Source of the DNA: a phage
Reading direction: 5' to 3' (one strand)
Length of the DNA stretch: 64,000 nucleotides
Sequence record: PZ452609.1
Below the pieces are notes generated by a model that saw only the letters and a program-made list of their open reading frames with translations, was not told where the DNA came from and searched no databases. This document shows positions 15,064-43,310 of this stretch, piece after piece. Made by a program: the position numbers and the translations under genes. The first letter of the stretch is position 1. Every line of letters begins with the position of its first letter.

Positions 15064-16104
15064 ATGGAGAAGTACACATTAACAAAGCTTCCCGATTCAG
15101 TTACACATGTCTTTATTGACTCTGACAGTATTGCCTATAAAGGTGCTTGTGTAGTTGAGAAAGCAAAGTATAAATACGTTAATAAACTCACAGCAGAAGA
15201 GTCTGAACCATTTGATAATGCGAAAGATGCTGCAAGATGGTTAGCAGACCAGAGAATCCTTGTGGAAGAGCTTGGCCTGACATTTGAGGAAGATGAATGG
15301 GAAAGACAAACTTGGAAAGAAGCTAAGAGTGAAAAAGAAGCTATCATGGCTACTCAACAGGTGCTTCAGGAATGGCTTAAGATTGTTGGTAAAGAAAGAA
15401 CTTGGGTAGGTTATTTAACAGAGAAGGGTGTGCATAAACATAAAGACATTAAAGGTCTTGAGCACCAATATCAAGGTAATCGTAAAGATGCTGTCACACC
15501 AACACACTTAGTCGCTTGTCGTGAATACCTTTTATCCAGACCAGAGTTCAAGCTCTTAAAGGGGGGCTTCGAAGCCGATTCAATCGTAATTGCTAAAGCT
15601 GAAAAGATGGGTAAGAAGGCTGCTCTTATGAGTATTGACAAAGACCTTCGACAAGCTGAAGGAACTTATTGTATTGATATGACTTATGAAAAATCACCAC
15701 TAATCTTTATTGCTGATAATAATGTTGGTGATATCTGGGATTGTCCTATCAAATCAAAACCAAAAGCTGCAAAAACAGTTGGTGTAGGTTTTAAATTCTT
15801 GTGCTATCAGGCTGTTGCTGGAGATAATGCAGACAACTACTTCGGACTTAAAGGTGCTGGTAAAGTGGCTGTGATGAATGCTTTAGATGGTAAAGAGACC
15901 TACAAAGAGTGTCTTGATGCTATCTATGAACTCTATGCTAAAAAAGACTCTTACACCTATGTATCATGGGATGGACAGACAGTTACAAAGACACCGTTAG
16001 AGCTAATGGAACAGCATTTCTGGATAGCTTATCAAGAAAGAAATCCAAAAGATAATTTCTCTTTTAAGAAATATAATTGGGAGCCGTGTATGAATGAAGA
16101 TTAA
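15064..16104 (+). CDS. 5'-3' exonuclease / flap endonuclease
   Basis: N-terminal VFIDSDSIAY and H3TH-like GLKGAGKVAV motifs. Confidence 0.5.
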   Translation: MEKYTLTKLPDSVTHVFIDSDSIAYKGACVVEKAKYKYVNKLTAEESEPFDNAKDAARWLADQRILVEELGLTFEEDEWERQTWKEAKSEKEAIMATQQVLQEWLKIVGKERTWVGYLTEKGVHKHKDIKGLEHQYQGNRKDAVTPTHLVACREYLLSRPEFKLLKGGFEADSIVIAKAEKMGKKAALMSIDKDLRQAEGTYCIDMTYEKSPLIFIADNNVGDIWDCPIKSKPKAAKTVGVGFKFLCYQAVAGDNADNYFGLKGAGKVAVMNALDGKETYKECLDAIYELYAKKDSYTYVSWDGQTVTKTPLELMEQHFWIAYQERNPKDNFSFKKYNWEPCMNED

Positions 16105-16591
16105 AGGATTTGGCAATTGCCCCACCTATGGTCATTGGGTGTCTTTATGTGGGGAAGTTGACCCCACTAAACATTTTGGTTTTGTCTATTTAGTACACTG
16201 TAAGAAAACCGGACAATATTATATCGGAAAGAAACAGCTTAATAGTGTGACTAAAAGAAAAGTTGCTGGCAAGACTCGGAAGAAGGTAGTCACTAAGGAG
16301 AGTGATTGGATGACTTATGAAACTTCTTCTGAGTATATTAAAAAAGATATTGAGAGCTTTGGAAAAGAATTTTTTGACTTTTACATTATTCAGACCTACT
16401 ACACAAAAGGTGGCCTAGTCTATGGTGAAGCAAATCTTCAACATAAATTCGATGTAATGACAAAAAGGATTGACTCTAAGCTCAGACTCTTCTACAATGC
16501 CAATATTGCAGCAATTAAGTTTATTACTAAAGAAACTTATGAAGATGCTGAAAAAAGAATCCATAAGGTAATGAAAGCAAACTGTGCTTGA
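16094..16591 (+). CDS. putative GIY-YIG endonuclease
   Basis: GFVYLV..GQYYIGKK matches GIY-(10 aa)-YIG spacing. Confidence 0.4.
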   Translation: MKIKGFGNCPTYGHWVSLCGEVDPTKHFGFVYLVHCKKTGQYYIGKKQLNSVTKRKVAGKTRKKVVTKESDWMTYETSSEYIKKDIESFGKEFFDFYIIQTYYTKGGLVYGEANLQHKFDVMTKRIDSKLRLFYNANIAAIKFITKETYEDAEKRIHKVMKANCA

Positions 16592-27620: not shown

Positions 27621-28502
27621 ATGAAAACATCTATCCGTGTTACAGTTCATTCACCAACTAAAGGGACTCATGAAGAAGAGTTTAACATCGTCCAATTCCC
27701 TTCTGGTGAGATTGGTGGACACTTTTCGCCAGAGTTTGTTGATTTTACTGCTTATGCAGCATCATCCATCAACAATGTGATTATGATTGTAAAAGGTTAT
27801 GACAAGGACACATTGTTTGCTGTGGCACTTGCTAAAGAAGCAATTGATGATTTAATTCCTCATGATTATGCTTTAAAGACTGTCATCTTTTACTACTTAC
27901 CAAATGCACGATATGACCGTCACATGTTTAAAGGTGACGCAGCAGCTTTAAAGGTTTTTGCTAAACAGATTAATGCAATGGGATTTGGCGCAGTCTGTGC
28001 AGTTGACCCTCACAGCTATGTACCAGATAACCTGTTTAACTGCTTCCAGAGTATTCCTCAAAAGGAGATTGCAGTCCACTATGCAAATGACCCACTGGTT
28101 GATTACTTAGTAGCCCCAGATGCAGGTGCTGCTAAGAAGGTTGCAGAGACCGCTAAAGAGGTGGATAAACCATATATCACAATGTCTAAGGTGCGTAACC
28201 TTAAGACTGGTGAAATTACTGGTATGCGAATCCTTGATGATGTTGATTTGACAGATAAAACCGTCATGATTCTGGATGATATCTGTGATGGTGGTCGAAC
28301 CTTCATAGAAGCAGCTAAGCATCTCCGTGAAGCAGGTACAAAACGTGTGGAACTCTATGTAACACATGGTATCTTCTCTAAAGATGTTGAAAACCTTCTT
28401 GACAATGGTATTGACCATATCTACACTACAAACTCTTTAGGGGAAGCTAAAGACCGTGGCTTAACACATTATGGTCAAGTTACTGTAGCAAACCTTGATT
28501 GA
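27621..28502 (+). CDS. ribose-phosphate pyrophosphokinase (Prs)-like enzyme; candidate ADP-ribose pyrophosphokinase
   Basis: PRPP-binding-loop-like ILDDICDGGRT; ATG start with GAGAGAG RBS; immediately upstream of the Nampt-like gene. Confidence 0.7.
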   Translation: MKTSIRVTVHSPTKGTHEEEFNIVQFPSGEIGGHFSPEFVDFTAYAASSINNVIMIVKGYDKDTLFAVALAKEAIDDLIPHDYALKTVIFYYLPNARYDRHMFKGDAAALKVFAKQINAMGFGAVCAVDPHSYVPDNLFNCFQSIPQKEIAVHYANDPLVDYLVAPDAGAAKKVAETAKEVDKPYITMSKVRNLKTGEITGMRILDDVDLTDKTVMILDDICDGGRTFIEAAKHLREAGTKRVELYVTHGIFSKDVENLLDNGIDHIYTTNSLGEAKDRGLTHYGQVTVANLD

Positions 28503-28511
28503 AACTTTATA

Positions 28512-28532
28512 GGGGCTTAAAAGCCCCATTTT
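28512..28532 (+). terminator. rho-independent terminator
   Basis: ggggcttaaaagcccc then atttt. Confidence 0.5.
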
Positions 28533-28547
28533 GAGAGAGATTAAAAG

Positions 28548-30329
28548 ATGACTAAATCACTTTATGCAGTACCAGCAGGTTTAAATGCAGATGCTTACAA
28601 ATCTGGTCATGTTTACCAGTATCCTAGTGCAACAGAATACTTGATGTTCAACCTGACACCACGTAGTGATAAATGGTTTAACAGCCCTTTAGCAATTGAC
28701 GGTGTAGTGGCTTTTGGTATTCAACGTTTTGTTAAAGATTACTTGATAGACCACTGGAATGCCACTTTCTTTGAACGTGATAAAAAAGAAGCCATTGATG
28801 AAATCTTAGAAGTCATGAATGGTGTTCTGGGTAAAGATGCTATCGGTCGAGAGCATTGGGAAGCACTTCACGACTTAGGTTATCTACCAGTTGAAGTATA
28901 CGCTGTAGAAGAAGGCACAGTTGTTCCAATGCGTGTCCCGATGATTGTCTTTCAGAACACTGTTTCAGGTTTTCATTGGGTAGCAGGTTATCTGGAAGAT
29001 GCTTTCTCTGCTGAAATTTGGAAGGCTTGCACCATTGCAACTATTGCATTGCATTACAAACGCATCTGTAAGAAGTGGGCTGACCTTACTTGTGACAATG
29101 ACTTACATTTACCTTATCAGTGCCATGATTTTGCTATGCGTGGTATGTCCGGCTTTACTGATGACGCATTTAACGCTGTAGGTCACTTAACCAGCTTTAA
29201 AGGGACTGATAGCTTCCCTGCTGTATACACGGCTAAACGAATCTATGGACAGTCCTACCCAATCTCTGATATTGGTAGCTCTGTACCAGCCACTGAGCAC
29301 TCTGTAATGTGTGCAAACATTGCTTGGGAAGGTGGTAATGAGTTGATTGAAGAAGAAAGACGCTTTAAAGGTGAGTTACAAACCTTCCGTCGTTTCTTAA
29401 CAGAAACTTACCCAACAGGTATTGCAAGTATTGTTTCAGATACTTATAACTTCTGGAGAACTGTGTCAGAAATCTTACCAGCACTTCGTAAAGAAATTAT
29501 GGAACGTGATGGCAAACTGGTAATTCGCCCTGACTCTGGAGACCCTGTACATATTGTCACAGGTTATAAAGCAATCCACTTAGAATGTGCTAAGAAGGCT
29601 TATTACGAGCACCTAAGCAAGCTGGAAGTCAGTGACACAATGTTGAATGCTGTTCTTAACATGAAGCTTGAAAACATCAACTATGGTATTGCTGGATGGC
29701 TACTGTCAGAAGGCTACGAAATGGTTGTTGACAGAGAAGACTTTGAAGTTGCTGATACAGTGATGTTGAAGAACGCTTATATGGTTGGTTCTGCAAACGT
29801 TGTAACACGCCCTGTAGCAGAGATTGATGGAGCTATTAAGACCTTGTATAACATCTTTGGAGGAACTATCAACTCTAAAGGTTTTAAGGTACTGGATGAG
29901 CACATTGGACTTATCTATGGCGACTCTATCACGTTGGAACGTGCAAACGAAATCCTGAAGCGTCTGTATGAAATGGGGTTTGCAAGCTCTAACGTGGTGT
30001 TTGGTGTAGGCTCTTACACTTACCAGTACATGACTCGTGACACCTTTGCATTTGCTGTCAAAGCAACTCTTGCAAGCATTGGTGGCAAAGAGATTATGCT
30101 TGCAAAAGACCCTAAAACAGATAGTGGTGTTAAGAAATCTGCCTTTGGTGGTGTAGCACCTATGTGGGATGGTGAGAATTTGAAAGCTGTAGATGGCTAT
30201 GGATTCCAGAGCTTTGCAGATGCACTTGAACATCCAGCTTGTGCTTTACGTTTAGTCTTTAGCGACTCTGAGCAGTACGGTTACACAACTCTTGGTGATA
30301 TTCGAAATAATATTGACAAGCAGCTTTAA
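28548..30329 (+). CDS. nicotinamide phosphoribosyltransferase (Nampt/NadV) family enzyme
   Basis: N-terminal NADAYKSGHVYQYP matches the Nampt DSYKxxHxxQYP signature; 593 aa. Confidence 0.8.
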   Translation: MTKSLYAVPAGLNADAYKSGHVYQYPSATEYLMFNLTPRSDKWFNSPLAIDGVVAFGIQRFVKDYLIDHWNATFFERDKKEAIDEILEVMNGVLGKDAIGREHWEALHDLGYLPVEVYAVEEGTVVPMRVPMIVFQNTVSGFHWVAGYLEDAFSAEIWKACTIATIALHYKRICKKWADLTCDNDLHLPYQCHDFAMRGMSGFTDDAFNAVGHLTSFKGTDSFPAVYTAKRIYGQSYPISDIGSSVPATEHSVMCANIAWEGGNELIEEERRFKGELQTFRRFLTETYPTGIASIVSDTYNFWRTVSEILPALRKEIMERDGKLVIRPDSGDPVHIVTGYKAIHLECAKKAYYEHLSKLEVSDTMLNAVLNMKLENINYGIAGWLLSEGYEMVVDREDFEVADTVMLKNAYMVGSANVVTRPVAEIDGAIKTLYNIFGGTINSKGFKVLDEHIGLIYGDSITLERANEILKRLYEMGFASSNVVFGVGSYTYQYMTRDTFAFAVKATLASIGGKEIMLAKDPKTDSGVKKSAFGGVAPMWDGENLKAVDGYGFQSFADALEHPACALRLVFSDSEQYGYTTLGDIRNNIDKQL

Positions 30330-30344
30330 AAGTATATGATAAGA

Positions 30345-30365
30345 GGCTCCTACGGGAGCCTTTTT
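30345..30365 (+). terminator. rho-independent terminator
   Basis: ggctcc-tacg-ggagcc then ttttt. Confidence 0.6.
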
Positions 30366-34810: not shown

Positions 34811-34826
34811 TAAGTAATTTCTTAAA

Positions 34827-34849
34827 AGGCTGCTTCGGCGGCCTTTTTT
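34827..34849 (+). terminator. rho-independent terminator (UUCG-type loop)
   Basis: aggctgc-ttcg-gcggcct then tttttt, after rIIB. Confidence 0.6.
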
Positions 34850-36608: not shown

Positions 36609-36620
36609 GGTTAAGATACA

Positions 36621-36641
36621 GGCTCCTTCGGGAGCCTTTTT
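36621..36641 (+). terminator. rho-independent terminator (UUCG-type loop)
   Basis: ggctcc-ttcg-ggagcc then ttttt. Confidence 0.6.
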
Positions 36642-38067: not shown

Positions 38068-38269
38068 AAAGACACGGAAACTCATCCGGTCAGCAGTATT
38101 CATTGGAAGAAATGAAGTCATCCCGTTTACAGCAAACGATGTGATAGCCTACAGGAAAAACTTAGTGTTTAGTGATTGCTTGCGTGGCTTCATCTCCCAA
38201 CCGTTGGAAGATTTTAAAAGCCGTTGTGGTAAAGGTATCATCATTCAAGAGGCAATTATCAATGGCTGA
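38042..38269 (+). CDS. hypothetical protein
   Basis: 75-aa ORF. Confidence 0.3.
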   Translation: MRVILARDKKTRKLIRSAVFIGRNEVIPFTANDVIAYRKNLVFSDCLRGFISQPLEDFKSRCGKGIIIQEAIING

Positions 38270-38462
38270 CTTCTGCAAAGACTGTTCTATCGAAATGTTC
38301 GGACGTGATACAGGTGACTTAAAAGGTCTTATCACTGAAGATGACTTTAAAGCTGGTTATGCAATGCCAGTAATCTGTGAAGGTTGTGGGTGCATCTGGG
38401 TAGACCACGAAGGACAACGTGTAAAACCTTCAGAAGACAAAGAATCTTGGGAGAGATGTTAA
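38263..38462 (+). CDS. small zinc-ribbon protein
   Basis: Start at MADFCKDCS; CKDCS..CEGCGC. Confidence 0.3.
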
Positions 38463-39248
38463 ATGGGTATTGTAAAAATAATTAATGGTGATATCTTTGC
38501 CGCATTTGATAAAGGTAAGTTTGACATCATCGGTCACGGTTGCAACTGTATGAATTTAATGGGTGCAGGTATCGCTGACAAGATTTCTAAACTTTACCCA
38601 AAAGCATATGAGACCGATACAGAAGTTTATCTGTATGCAGGTGGTATAGGACACAAACCCTGTGAAAATTTACTGGGTAATTTCTCTGTAGCACGTTTAA
38701 AACAAGGTCGTATAGCTAACCTTTACACTCAGCTTAAGACTGGTAAAGATGCCCGATACAGTGCTTTAGAGTCATCTTTGAAACAGCTTAACAGATACTG
38801 TGAAGTTAATCAGTTGAAGAAGGTTGGTTTACCTATGATTGGTGCAGGTATCGGTGGACTTGACCCTCAAGCCGTCACAGTTATCATTAATCAGGTGATG
38901 AAGAGTGTAGATGTTTATCTGTATGTCTACGAAGGAGAGATGTACCACAAGTTACGCTCAGGTTGGAATAACTACTGTGAACCAGAATACTTTGCAGGTG
39001 TAGTAACGTTCAAAGATGATACAGTTACCCTCTTCAGACGAAGAAAAGGTAAGATACATCAAAGTAACCCTCCGGTTGAGAAGATGTCTCTAAGTAACGC
39101 TCTAGTTACCCACCTGTCGAAGAGCAATCACAGGATAGCCGTAACATTTGGCAGTGATGCAGATACATATATTTATGCAAGAACTGATGAGGATATCGAG
39201 ACGGTCTTCTCTTCACCAGAAGTTACCTTCTTAGACGCAAAGAACTAA
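38463..39248 (+). CDS. macro-domain protein (ADP-ribose binding/processing)
   Basis: GHGCNCMNLMGAGIA and a second GAGIGG glycine-rich motif typical of macro domains. Confidence 0.7.
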   Translation: MGIVKIINGDIFAAFDKGKFDIIGHGCNCMNLMGAGIADKISKLYPKAYETDTEVYLYAGGIGHKPCENLLGNFSVARLKQGRIANLYTQLKTGKDARYSALESSLKQLNRYCEVNQLKKVGLPMIGAGIGGLDPQAVTVIINQVMKSVDVYLYVYEGEMYHKLRSGWNNYCEPEYFAGVVTFKDDTVTLFRRRKGKIHQSNPPVEKMSLSNALVTHLSKSNHRIAVTFGSDADTYIYARTDEDIETVFSSPEVTFLDAKN

Positions 39249-39317
39249 GAAACTCTGTATAATATTCACAATAGACTAAGCCTTCTTTATCTGGTAAATT
39301 TTTCAGGTAAGGAGGGC

Positions 39318-39501
39318 TTTTTCATTTCAGGATTGTGCAGGTAGAGTTCTGTAGAGAAATCTGTAGAGAGAATTTTGAACTCCAAAGAGAAAATTCATTT
39401 TCAAACTGTGCAGGTAATCTCCAAAGAGCTTTTTCATTTTCAAAACGTGCAGACCCCGCTCAGGTCGGGCAAGAAAAATCATTTTAGAATCGTGCAGGTA
39501 G
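39318..39501. repeat. four direct repeats of about 22 bp (tcatttYcaNaaYYgtgcagg), iteron-like
   Basis: Copies near 39318, 39391, 39428 and 39474, followed by a polypyrimidine tract 39524-39553. Confidence 0.6.
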
Positions 39502-39676
39502 GTTTTTATAGAGAGCCAGACCAACCCCTCTCCCCCTCTTACTCCACCTCTCCCCAAAAGTCAAGAGAAAAATTTGTAGCGGGTTGAAAAATAATTCTTG
39601 ATTTGTGTTCTGTTTTGTGGTAGTCGTGCGCGCCCGTTCATTTCCCAACCTTACAAAAAATATTTAATAAAAACCG

Positions 39677-39705
39677 TTGACACGCCAAACAAGTTTACGT
39701 ACTAT
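39677..39705 (+). promoter_or_regulatory. sigma70-like promoter heading the small-ORF array
   Basis: TTGACA, 17-bp spacer, TACTAT. Confidence 0.5.
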
Positions 39706-39754
39706 TTGCATCAGACGGGCAAGCAAGCCCACTTCCTAAACTGGAGAATCGAAA

Positions 39755-42767: not shown

Positions 42768-43310
42768 ATGAAATGCTTTCACGGTACTACTCAAGAAAAC
42801 TTTATCAACCTGATTAATAACGGTGATAAACCATCAGGTGTATGGAATTGTTCGGATATGGACGGCAATTTTTACGTGTACCCAGAAAATAAACTCTATG
42901 GTGATGATGAGGAAGAGATAGCATCGGAAGGTATCCAGCAAGCTCTAGGAAATGCCACTATCACGGCAGCTTTTCAGATGAAAACTCAAAATATTGTTAT
43001 CTTAGAACTTGACATTCCAGAGGATGAGCTAAATGATGATTATTCTTGTGATAACATGTCAAATATAGCAAGCTTTACAGAGTACTTTGATGTAAATTGG
43101 ATTAAAAAGGTCTATACAACAGAGTTCAACGCTATGTATTCACCTTTTTGTCTCCCTTCACTGGATAACCCAAATTTAAATTATCTTGATGAAACATTGG
43201 AGCTACTTGCTAAAAGTATCCAACAATCCGACAGTATTCAGGTTTTTTGTGACATCATGGATACACTGACAGAAAACATTGTAGAGAGTGATTTAAAGGT
43301 CTTTTTCTAA
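42768..43310 (+). CDS. hypothetical protein (array member 9)
   Basis: Conserved leader with GGAG RBS. Confidence 0.5.
   Translation: MKCFHGTTQENFINLINNGDKPSGVWNCSDMDGNFYVYPENKLYGDDEEEIASEGIQQALGNATITAAFQMKTQNIVILELDIPEDELNDDYSCDNMSNIASFTEYFDVNWIKKVYTTEFNAMYSPFCLPSLDNPNLNYLDETLELLAKSIQQSDSIQVFCDIMDTLTENIVESDLKVFF

What the first reader, a model, noticed from the sequence alone, without database searches (positions are those of the whole stretch)
38463..39248. Macro-domain protein in the same region as the NAD+ genes
GHGCNCMNLMGAGIA and a second glycine-rich motif indicate a macro domain, which binds or hydrolyses ADP-ribose derivatives. Together with the NAD+ module 8 kb upstream, this suggests the phage handles ADP-ribose products, possibly reversing ADP-ribosylation or removing NAD-derived defence signals.
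Basis: partly seen in the sequence, partly recalled or inferred. Interest (0 to 1): 0.5.

Follow-up and report, generated by a model that had tools for sequence, protein, structure and literature searches.

The report
Phage macrodomain enzyme with orphan tail
This FelixO1-like phage gene does encode an ADP-ribose-processing macrodomain enzyme from a family that phages use to undo bacterial ADP-ribose/NAD+-based immunity; it is already annotated, its relatives were recently characterised, and its one unusual feature is an extra 100-residue domain of unknown fold.

Summary
Window 38463-39248 (+) is a 261-aa ORF whose residues ~3-157 form a macro domain: Pfam 32.3 bits against a cut-off of 22, AlphaFold pLDDT 90.7, TM 0.82-0.85 to TARG1 and DarG. 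The window is Escherichia typing phage 1 (Felixounavirus), where the gene is already annotated "macro domain protein" or "phosphatase". It is 97% identical to Bas63 gp95.

It belongs to the phage Tk.4/Adpp (Poa1p-like) macro family, for which two counter-defence roles were shown in 2025-26:
- T4 Tk.4 (AdfM) counters DarTG2, a system that ADP-ribosylates DNA.
- Vibrio phage Gary Adpp dephosphorylates ADPR-1''-phosphate so that NARP1 can rebuild NAD+ despite aRES.

The "NAD+ module" 8 kb upstream is NARP1 itself (77% and 98% identical to the Bas63 enzymes), but hairpin terminators place it in a separate transcription unit. The protein is nearer Tk.4 (35%, 82 bits) than Gary Adpp (27%, 53 bits). 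Those two are themselves 35% identical, so substrate cannot be assigned from sequence.

The whole family has Gln where TARG1 and DarG have the catalytic Lys. Residues 158-261 form a domain restricted to Ounavirinae-like phages, under purifying selection (dN/dS 0.19), with no relative by sequence or fold. Interest is moderate: a variant of a known kind.

The parts
38463..39248 (+). Complete gene for the 261-aa two-domain macro protein (orthologue of Bas63 gp95 and FDI04_gp093)
   Evidence: ORF listing and translation; 100% identical to KP869100/NC_041979 'macro domain protein'/'phosphatase'; 97% identical to bas63_0095; phrog_335 E=4e-113.
38469..38933 (+). N-terminal macro domain (aa ~3-157), Poa1p/TARG1/DarG class, phage Tk.4/Adpp family. 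Motifs: GD (9-10), HGCNC (25-29), MGAGIA (33-38), NLYTQ (86-90), PMIGAGIGG (124-132)
   Evidence: Pfam Macro; NCBIfam and PADLOC DarG partial hits; PDB profile hits; fold match to TARG1, DarG and Poa1p; invariant residues; dN/dS 0.066.
38934..39245 (+). C-terminal orphan domain (aa 158-261): helix, six beta-strands, helix. Found only fused to this macro domain in Ounavirinae-like phages
39278..39319 (+). Terminator-like hairpin 30 nt after the stop codon; probable end of the transcription unit
   Evidence: Consensus scan; a promoter-like site at 39677-39705 precedes the next gene. A pattern match only.
27621..30329 (+). NARP1 NAD+ reconstitution operon (Adps 27621-28502, Namat 28548-30329). 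This is context, possibly a functional partner, in a separate transcription unit
   Evidence: Pfam Pribosyltran/Pribosyl_synth and NAPRTase/NAMPT_N; 77% and 98% identical to Bas63 gp79/gp80, which were shown to be NARP1 (bioRxiv 10.1101/2024.02.11.579819); terminator-like hairpin at 30341-30364.

Best explanation
The gene encodes an accessory counter-defence enzyme that is dispensable in the laboratory. Its N-terminal macro domain belongs to the phage Tk.4(AdfM)/Adpp branch of the Poa1p/TARG1/DarG class. It binds ADP-ribose through its two glycine-rich loops and hydrolyses the bond at C1'' of the distal ribose, releasing free ADP-ribose.

I judge the most likely physiological substrate to be ADP-ribosyl-thymidine placed on phage single-stranded DNA by DarT2-type toxins. 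That would make it an AdfM-like orphan antitoxin that restores replication. The ADP-ribose it releases is also the input of the phage's own NARP1 pathway.

The C-terminal orphan domain is inferred, by analogy with the second domain of DarG, to supply target recognition, binding either DNA or a host defence protein.

Shown here: the fold, the family membership, the conserved ADP-ribose-binding and catalytic His/Asn residues, purifying selection on both domains, and dispensability of the 97%-identical Bas63 orthologue. Inferred: the substrate, the direction of the arms race, and the role of the C-terminal domain.
For: - Macro fold and family.
- The closest experimentally studied relative is T4 Tk.4/AdfM: 35% identity, 82 bits, against 27%, 53 bits for Gary Adpp.
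- In NJ bootstraps the Felix-type clade is monophyletic in 200/200, is nearer Tk.4 than Gary Adpp in 146/200, and is never the reverse.
- A Tk.4 knock-out sensitises T4 to DarTG2 (10.1101/2025.11.20.689424). [quoted passage not shown]
- The best NCBIfam and PADLOC hits are DarG.
- The Asn equivalent to DarG N22 / PhiKZ N23 (N28 here) and His25 are invariant.
- The gene is not part of the NARP1 operon: 16 genes and three terminator-like hairpins lie between them.
- The layout of macro domain plus extra C-terminal domain parallels DarG.
- Bas63 g95 is non-essential on four hosts and a 33-system defence panel, as expected for a conditional anti-defence gene; 'DarT' does not occur in the PhageMaP text.
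Against: - The catalytic Lys of TARG1 (K84) and DarG (K80) is Gln90 here, and TARG1 D125 aligns with Gly131. The only enzymes I know to cleave thymidine-linked ADP-ribose use that Lys (my knowledge of Jankevicius 2016 and Schuller 2021; PhiKZ AdfM also has K78).
- Tk.4 shares the Gln, but its anti-DarTG2 evidence is genetic only.
- Tk.4 is just as similar to the validated phosphatase Adpp (35%, 77 bits) and is closer to Poa1p than to DarG.
- Bootstrap support for excluding all NARP1-operon macros from the Felix+Tk.4 clade is only 118/200.
- The C-terminal domain resembles no solved structure, so nothing ties it to the DarT-binding domain of DarG.
- No DarTG2 data exist for any Felixounavirus.
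Confidence: 0.4

Rival explanations
1. Adpp-like: the macro domain is an ADPR-1''-phosphate phosphatase acting in trans with the phage's NARP1 (Adps + Namat). When a RES-domain defence (aRES) phosphorolyses NAD+ to nicotinamide and ADPR-1''-P, which Adps cannot use, the enzyme removes the 1''-phosphate so that NARP1 can rebuild NAD+. This is essentially the first reader's idea.
For: - It is the same macro family as the validated Adpp of Vibrio phage Gary, sharing the H-x-C-N-C, N-x-Y-x-Q and IG[AC]G motifs.
- The Adpp residue whose mutation abolished function (H24A) is His25 here, which is invariant.
- The genome carries a bona fide NARP1.
- The order NARP1 - rIIA/B - PNK - macro is retained in relatives whose macro proteins are only 33-43% identical.
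- aRES occurs in E. coli, Klebsiella and Enterobacter.
- A small-molecule substrate needs no gene adjacency.
- The aRES survey scanned only +/-2 genes around NARP1, so it would have missed this gene.
- A related macro protein is fused to a cyclic-phosphate-processing cREC domain (P0026).
- Lys-independent chemistry fits Gln90.
Against: - Sequence and tree place it nearer Tk.4 than either cluster of NARP1-operon macros.
- It lies in a different transcription unit from NARP1.
- The co-occurrence is inherited synteny, not independent association.
- The same macro family is abundant in T-even phages, which as far as I know lack NARP1; this was not checked here.
- A 100-residue extra domain is not needed for a small-molecule phosphatase, and the Adpp-type macros are about 148-165 aa.
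- No Escherichia or Salmonella phage appears in the Adpp table.
Confidence: 0.3
2. It removes ADP-ribose from proteins or RNA rather than DNA. The target could be a host mRNA/protein ADP-ribosyltransferase defence such as CmdTAC, or a phage-encoded ADP-ribosyltransferase for which it acts as an eraser.
For: - TARG1-class macrodomains de-MARylate proteins and nucleic-acid ends (PMC9503650; my knowledge of TARG1).
- A protein 3.5 kb downstream (window 42768-43310, 91% identical to Bas63 gp107) was reported to resemble faintly the NAD-binding domain of RNA 2'-phosphotransferase. It begins MKCFHGT, like an ART H-G-[ST] motif.
- CmdTAC is an mRNA ADP-ribosylating defence (PMC11618068).
Against: - The TARG1 catalytic dyad K84/D125 is absent.
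- gp102/gp107 has no Pfam or PDB sequence match, so its ART nature is unsupported here.
- No member of this phage family has been shown to act on protein or RNA.
Confidence: 0.1
3. It has the classical Poa1p housekeeping role: clearing ADPR-1''-phosphate (Appr-1''-p) made during RNA repair by a Tpt1/KptA-type 2'-phosphotransferase, as part of a phage RNA-repair set that includes the nearby polynucleotide kinase.
For: - Poa1p-like motif H-x-C-N-C and a fold match to Poa1p.
- A polynucleotide kinase gene lies 2.3 kb upstream.
- Bas63 gp107 has a reported faint Tpt1-like similarity.
- A survey notes that phage macro genes often sit among early RNA-repair functions (PMC9503650).
Against: - T4-type Pnkp/ligase repair leaves no 2'-phosphate (my knowledge).
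- No 2H or cyclic phosphodiesterase gene was identified near the macro gene.
- The Tpt1 similarity is unverified.
- Poa1p Ser30 is Leu32 here (Poa1p sequence shown).
Confidence: 0.07
4. It is a non-catalytic ADP-ribose reader or sponge that sequesters ADPR-derived molecules or targets the C-terminal domain to ADP-ribosylated substrates.
For: The Lys/Asp dyad of TARG1 is missing. Some macro domains act only as binders (PMC9503650).
Against: The same Gln-containing motif set occurs in Gary Adpp, which is catalytically active in vitro. The His and Asn needed for activity in Adpp and AdfM are invariant, and constraint is very strong (dN/dS 0.066).
Confidence: 0.05

Closest known systems
T4 Tk.4 = AdfM (anti-DarT factor macrodomain; bioRxiv 10.1101/2025.11.20.689424)
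   Same: Same macro family: 35% identity over 160 residues. Identical motifs HGCNC, NLYTQ and P-x-IGAGIG, including Gln at the TARG1 K84 / DarG K80 position. Both are early accessory genes of large E. coli myoviruses.
   Different: Tk.4 is a single 155-aa domain, whereas this protein has an extra 104-aa C-terminal domain. As far as I know T4 has no NARP1 (not checked here). Anti-DarTG2 activity is untested for any Felixounavirus.
Adpp of Vibrio phage Gary (NARP1-AP pathway; bioRxiv 10.64898/2026.01.28.702374)
   Same: Same family and motif set (AHQCNC / NVYGQ / PLIGCGLAGG). The catalytic His (H24) is conserved as H25. Both phages encode NARP1.
   Different: Only 27% identical (53 bits). Adpp sits between Adps and Namat in one operon, whereas this gene is 8.1 kb and 16 genes away in another transcription unit. 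Adpp-type macros are about 148-165 aa with no C-terminal domain. The tree puts the Felix-type clade outside both NARP1-operon clusters.
DarG2 antitoxin macrodomain (Taq/Mtb DarG, PDB 5M3E/5M3I) and PhiKZ gp104 AdfM (PMC13309987)
   Same: Same structural class (TM 0.76-0.82). The Asn (DarG N22) is conserved. The architecture is also a macro domain followed by a second domain.
   Different: The catalytic Lys (K80; K78 in PhiKZ) is replaced by Gln. The NCBIfam DarG score is 47.5 bits against a cut-off of 250 and covers the macro part only. The C-terminal domain resembles no solved structure. There is no adjacent DarT.
Human TARG1/OARD1 (PDB 4J5R) and yeast Poa1p (PDB 6LFQ)
   Same: These are the best structural and profile matches. 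The H-x-C-N-C His is shared with Poa1p H23.
   Different: TARG1 K84 aligns with Gln90 and TARG1 D125 with Gly131; Poa1p S30 aligns with Leu32. Identity is 22-25%.

Membership tests
Macro domain superfamily (Pfam PF01661) | Sequence score above the curated Pfam gathering threshold | tested here: met
   32.3 bits against a cut-off of 22, aa 25-141.
Macro domain superfamily (Pfam PF01661) | Macro fold (three-layer alpha/beta/alpha) on structure prediction | tested here: met
   pLDDT 90.7. Foldseek against the PDB gives TARG1 TM 0.85, DarG 0.82, Poa1p 0.75, all at probability 1.00.
Macro domain superfamily (Pfam PF01661) | Two glycine-rich ADP-ribose/diphosphate-binding loops | tested here: met
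   MGAGIA (33-38) and IGAGIGG (126-132). G36, G127 and G129 are invariant in 30 sequences.
Phage Tk.4/Adpp (Poa1p-like) macro family (phrog_335) | Significant full-length profile match | tested here: met
   phrog_335 E=4e-113 over aa 1-260.
Phage Tk.4/Adpp (Poa1p-like) macro family (phrog_335) | Shared motifs H-x-C-N-C, N-x-[YH]-x-Q and IG[AC]G | tested here: met
   Alignment with T4 Tk.4 and homologues, and with Gary Adpp and other NARP1-operon macros.
AdfM (anti-DarTG2 macrodomain) | Homology to a validated AdfM | tested here: met
   35% identity, E=3e-24 to T4 Tk.4.
AdfM (anti-DarTG2 macrodomain) | DarG-type active site (Asn22 + Lys80) | tested here: not met
   The Asn is present (N28) but the Lys position is Gln90. 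T4 Tk.4 has the same substitution, so this feature does not define the Tk.4-type AdfM.
AdfM (anti-DarTG2 macrodomain) | [quoted passage not shown] | not testable with these tools
   Needs a plaque assay or biochemistry. No literature data exist for Felixounavirus.
Adpp / NARP1-AP | Macro gene within the Adps-Namat operon (within two genes) | tested here: not met
   16 genes and 8.1 kb downstream, with terminator-like hairpins between.
Adpp / NARP1-AP | NARP1 (Adps + Namat) present in the same genome | tested here: met
Adpp / NARP1-AP | Catalytic His (Gary H24) conserved | tested here: met
   H25 is invariant.
Adpp / NARP1-AP | ADPR-1''-phosphate phosphatase activity | not testable with these tools
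   Requires an enzyme assay.
DarG antitoxin (NCBIfam NF048014 equivalog) | Score above the equivalog cut-off, with full-length architecture including the DarT-binding C-terminal domain and an adjacent darT | tested here: not met
   47.5 bits against a cut-off of 250, macro part only. The C-terminal domain has no PDB relative. No darT is annotated nearby.
TARG1/OARD1 | Catalytic dyad Lys84/Asp125 | tested here: not met
   These positions are Gln90 and Gly131 in profile and pairwise alignments.

The most novel reading that the evidence does not exclude
The Felix-type protein is a two-mode, DarG-like counter-defence factor. First, its Gln-type macro domain is a promiscuous C1''-hydrolase that both erases DarT2 DNA marks and dephosphorylates ADPR-1''-P, in each case yielding ADP-ribose for NARP1. 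That would make one enzyme answer two unrelated defences by a Lys-independent mechanism distinct from TARG1 and DarG. Second, its lineage-restricted orphan C-terminal domain directly binds and blocks a host defence enzyme such as DarT2 or aRES.
Probability: 0.12. Interest if true: 0.7.

Novelty: new variant of a known kind. Interest (0 to 1): 0.42.

Why it matters
Phage macrodomains are among the commonest ADP-ribose-handling genes in large phages, and functions were assigned to them only in 2025-26. Three points from this locus deserve follow-up.

1. The genetically validated anti-DarTG2 factor (T4 Tk.4) and the biochemically validated ADPR-1''-P phosphatase (Gary Adpp) are 35% identical members of one family. 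Both lack the catalytic lysine of DarG and TARG1. Either the family is bifunctional or specificity is set by features not yet identified.

2. FelixO1-like phages, which include therapeutic and diagnostic phages and the NARP1 archetype Bas63, carry such a macro gene outside the NARP1 operon. The published NARP1-AP survey would have missed it. If the enzyme works in trans, resistance to aRES is more widespread than reported.

3. The fused orphan domain may be a new recognition module.

Bas63 is genetically tractable, so all three points can be tested directly.

Tried and rejected
- Weak hits of the C-terminal profile to giant proteins were repeat artefacts (PQQ beta-propellers, internally repeated sequences) and were rejected.
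- I first concluded that the Erwinia (Kolesnikvirus) orthologue carries a different C-terminal domain (hhalign probability 0.06%). Its C-terminus then matched the same columns of phrog_335 (E=1e-12). I now call this inconclusive.
- Positive selection on the C-terminal domain is not supported: dN/dS is 0.19 overall and at most 0.49 in aa 158-190.
- A conserved partner gene upstream: the abutting 66-aa CxxC protein has a vaguely similar counterpart in one distant relative but not another, so it is not a robust association.
- A hidden RNA in the 500-bp gap after the gene: nothing found in Rfam.
- The RefSeq 'NAD synthetase' as a further NAD+ gene: rejected, because it is a GIY-YIG endonuclease.
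- gp102/gp107 as an ADP-ribosyltransferase: no sequence-level support.
- Co-occurrence of the macro gene with NARP1 as functional evidence: set aside, because it reflects conserved synteny within one lineage.

Full report
**1. The observation.**

Window 38463-39248 (+) is an uninterrupted ATG-to-stop ORF of 261 aa. The quoted motif GHGCNCMNLMGAGIA is residues 24-38. The second glycine-rich motif is PMIGAGIGGLD, residues 124-134.

The macro-domain call is sound:
- Pfam PF01661 scores 32.3 bits against a cut-off of 22.
- A profile of 30 family members hits TARG1 (9e-17), M. tuberculosis DarG (2e-16) and yeast Poa1p (3e-14) among solved structures.
- An AlphaFold2 model built on that alignment has mean pLDDT 90.7 and pTM 0.89.
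- The model superposes on TARG1 (TM 0.85), T. aquaticus DarG (0.82) and Poa1p (0.75).

**2. Provenance and prior annotation.**

The gene is 100% identical to Escherichia (O157) typing phage 1, a Felixounavirus, where it is annotated "macro domain protein" (KP869100) or "phosphatase" (NC_041979, FDI04_gp093). About 200 FelixO1-like records carry it at 90% nucleotide identity or more. About 2,800 phage records carry a relative of the macro part only, including genes annotated Tk.4 in T4-like phages. It is 97% identical to gp95 of the BASEL phage Bas63.

**3. The neighbourhood.**

The "NAD+ module" consists of a PRPS-like gene (27621-28502) and a NAMPT-like gene (28548-30329). These are 77% and 98% identical to Bas63 gp79 and gp80. 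Bas63 gp79/gp80 are the archetype of NARP1: Adps pyrophosphorylates free ADP-ribose, and Namat joins the product to nicotinamide to rebuild NAD+. This overcomes NAD+-depleting defences such as Sir2-HerA (bioRxiv 10.1101/2024.02.11.579819; PhageMaP).

Between NARP1 and the macro gene lie 16 genes, among them rIIA, rIIB, a polynucleotide kinase and a spanin. Three canonical GC-stem, tetraloop, T-run hairpins also lie on the coding strand, at 30341-30364 (immediately after Namat), 34824-34847 and 36620-36637. A further terminator-like hairpin follows the macro gene at 39278-39319. These are pattern matches, not proof, but they place the macro gene in a different transcription unit from NARP1.

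**4. What is known about the family.**

Two recent lines of work bear directly on this protein.

(i) AdfM. A transposon screen found that T4 tk.4 is needed only in the presence of DarTG2, and a clean knock-out sensitised T4. The gene was renamed AdfM, and its mechanism (removal of ADP-ribose from DNA) was described as likely rather than shown (bioRxiv 10.1101/2025.11.20.689424). [quoted passage not shown] (ii) Adpp. RES-domain defence proteins (aRES) split NAD+ into nicotinamide and ADPR-1''-phosphate, which NARP1 cannot use. In 15% of NARP1 phages a Poa1p-like macro protein sits within two genes of the operon. The one from Vibrio phage Gary dephosphorylates ADPR-1''-P in vitro, and the three-gene operon overcomes aRES (bioRxiv 10.64898/2026.01.28.702374). 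The inactivating Adpp mutation was H24A.

**5. Where this protein falls.**

BLASTP comparisons:

| Pair | Identity | Bits |
|---|---|---|
| This protein vs T4 Tk.4 | 35% | 82 |
| This protein vs Gary Adpp | 27% | 53 |
| This protein vs operon-embedded macro of Vibrio phage K460 | 28% | 50 |
| T4 Tk.4 vs Gary Adpp | 35% | 77 |

All of these proteins share H-x-C-N-C, N-x-[YH]-x-Q and IG[AC]G motifs.

I built a neighbour-joining tree of 27 sequences. The two-domain Felix-type proteins are monophyletic in 200/200 bootstraps. They lie nearer Tk.4 than Gary Adpp in 146/200 and never the reverse. The clade joining them to Tk.4 excludes every NARP1-operon macro in only 118/200. The protein is thus on the Tk.4 side, with moderate support. 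The validated AdfM and Adpp enzymes form a continuum rather than two cleanly separated families. T4 Tk.4 is itself closer in sequence to Poa1p (3e-6) than to DarG (5e-4).

**6. Active site.**

Invariant or nearly invariant residues in the 30-sequence family alignment include G9, H25, G26, N28, C29, M33, G34, G36, A38, N86, L87, T89, Q90, P124, G127 and G129.
- H25 corresponds to Adpp H24 and Poa1p H23.
- N28 corresponds to DarG N22.
- The catalytic lysine of TARG1 (K84) and DarG (K80) aligns with Gln90, and TARG1 D125 aligns with Gly131.

The Gln is present in every phage family member examined, including both T4 Tk.4 and Gary Adpp. Three things follow:
- This protein is not a DarG or TARG1 equivalog. 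The NCBIfam DarG score of 47.5 bits against a cut-off of 250 agrees.
- The Gln cannot discriminate between the two candidate activities.
- If Tk.4-type proteins really cleave thymidine-linked ADP-ribose, they do so without the lysine used by the enzymes known to do it. That last statement rests on my knowledge of the DarG/TARG1 literature.

**7. The C-terminal domain (aa 158-261).**

Prediction is confident in the full-length context: pLDDT is 86-93 over most of the domain, and a pTM of 0.89 suggests a fixed orientation relative to the macro domain. Modelled alone it is less confident (pLDDT 78). The fold is a helix, six strands and a helix.

A profile search of 1.84 billion representative proteins found it only fused to this macro domain, or in fragments of such genes. 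Other hits were repeat-protein artefacts.

Carriers are Felixounavirus, Mooglevirus, Suspvirus, Si3-like phages and a few unnamed relatives down to 33% overall identity. Those relatives retain the order Namat - rIIA - rIIB - PNK - macro. The Erwinia Kolesnikvirus orthologue has a C-terminal extension of the same length, whose relationship is unclear.

Across 20 distinct Felixounavirus alleles, dN/dS is:

| Region | dN/dS |
|---|---|
| Macro domain (aa 1-157) | 0.066 |
| C-terminal domain (aa 158-261) | 0.188 |
| Linker and first hairpin (aa 158-190) | 0.49 |
| Rest of the C-terminal domain (aa 191-261) | 0.105 |

. The domain is therefore real and constrained, evolves about three times faster than the macro domain, and shows no gene-wide positive selection. 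Its function is unknown. The analogy with DarG, whose second domain binds DarT, is suggestive only.

**8. Direct experimental data on this gene.**

In PhageMaP, Bas63 g95 ("putative phosphatase") has high fitness scores, meaning it is non-essential, on four laboratory hosts and across a panel of 33 defence systems. It was not reported as a counter of any of them. "DarT" does not occur in the PhageMaP text. In particular, g79-80 but not g95 were needed against Sir2-HerA. That is expected, because Sir2-HerA yields plain ADP-ribose. The gene is thus a dispensable accessory gene whose condition of need has not yet been tested.

**9. Verdict.**

It is a genuine macro-domain enzyme of the phage Tk.4/Adpp family and almost certainly a counter-defence hydrolase acting at C1'' of ADP-ribose.

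My confidence in each reading:

| Reading | Confidence |
|---|---|
| AdfM-like (reversal of DarT2 DNA ADP-ribosylation) | 0.40 |
| Adpp-like (ADPR-1''-P phosphatase feeding NARP1 in trans) | 0.30 |
| Protein or RNA de-ADP-ribosylation | 0.10 |
| RNA-repair by-product clearance | 0.07 |
| Non-catalytic binder | 0.05 |

The AdfM reading rests on closest kinship, the DarG-like two-domain layout and the gene's position outside the NARP1 operon. The first two readings are not mutually exclusive. A bifunctional enzyme with a toxin-binding C-terminal domain is the most novel reading not excluded (about 0.12).

The macro domain itself is already annotated and its family already characterised. What is new is the fused orphan domain, and the observation that FelixO1-like NARP1 phages keep a Tk.4-type macro gene that the published NARP1-AP survey could not have counted. 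I rate it a new variant of a known kind, of moderate interest.

Noticed in passing
window 16094-16591 (+): RefSeq annotates this 165-aa ORF (FDI04_gp057) as 'NAD synthetase', but it is a SegE-type GIY-YIG endonuclease (PF19835, E=9e-28). It is a misannotation and not part of any NAD+ pathway.
   Followed up: yes
window 42768-43310 (+): This 180-aa protein is 91% identical to Bas63 gp107. PhageMaP reported gp107 as conditionally essential on E. coli S17-1 and faintly similar to the NAD-binding domain of RNA 2'-phosphotransferase. It begins MKCFHGT, like an ART H-G-[ST] motif. It has no Pfam or PDB sequence match, falls in phrog_3303 (unknown function) and is found only in Ounavirinae. It is a possible NAD+-using enzyme 3.5 kb from the macro gene.
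   Followed up: partly
window 38262-38462 (+): A 66-aa protein with CxxC...CxxC spacing (zinc-ribbon-like, phrog_2210, unknown function) has a stop codon that directly abuts the macro ATG, suggesting translational coupling. A vaguely similar small CxxC protein precedes the macro gene in one distant relative (L005) but not in another (L004).
   Followed up: partly
window 39249-39754: About 500 bp after the macro gene have no annotated gene in TP1. The stretch holds a 17-bp-stem terminator-like hairpin (39278-39319) and a promoter-like site (39677-39705). Bas63 annotates two tiny minus-strand ORFs in the equivalent gap. No Rfam family matches.
   Followed up: partly
window 30341-30364, 34824-34847, 36620-36637 (+): Three near-identical GC-stem hairpins with TACG or TTCG tetraloops and T-runs sit exactly at gene ends (after Namat, rIIB and gp085). 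They appear to divide the early region into short transcription units.
   Followed up: no
protein P0026 (metagenomic, 339 aa; not in the window): A Tk.4-like macro domain (34% identical to this one) is fused to a cREC_REC 'cyclic-phosphate processing receiver' domain (PF20274). This fusion points to small-molecule ADPR-phosphate processing within the family.
   Followed up: no
L002:4923-5390 (T4 tk.4) compared with Vibrio phage Gary Adpp: The anti-DarTG2 factor T4 Tk.4/AdfM and the ADPR-1''-P phosphatase Adpp are 35% identical (77 bits). Both have Gln at the position of the DarG/TARG1 catalytic Lys. Two papers use the name AdfM for proteins with different residues at this position: Lys (K78) in PhiKZ gp104 and Gln in T4 Tk.4.
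   Followed up: partly
L007:12998-13780 (Erwinia phage vEam_W_25, Kolesnikvirus): This orthologous 260-aa macro protein has the same synteny as here. Its C-terminal 105 residues show no similarity to the domain in this window by hhalign (probability 0.06%), yet they match the same columns of phrog_335 (E=1e-12). It is either a highly diverged or a replaced domain.
   Followed up: partly
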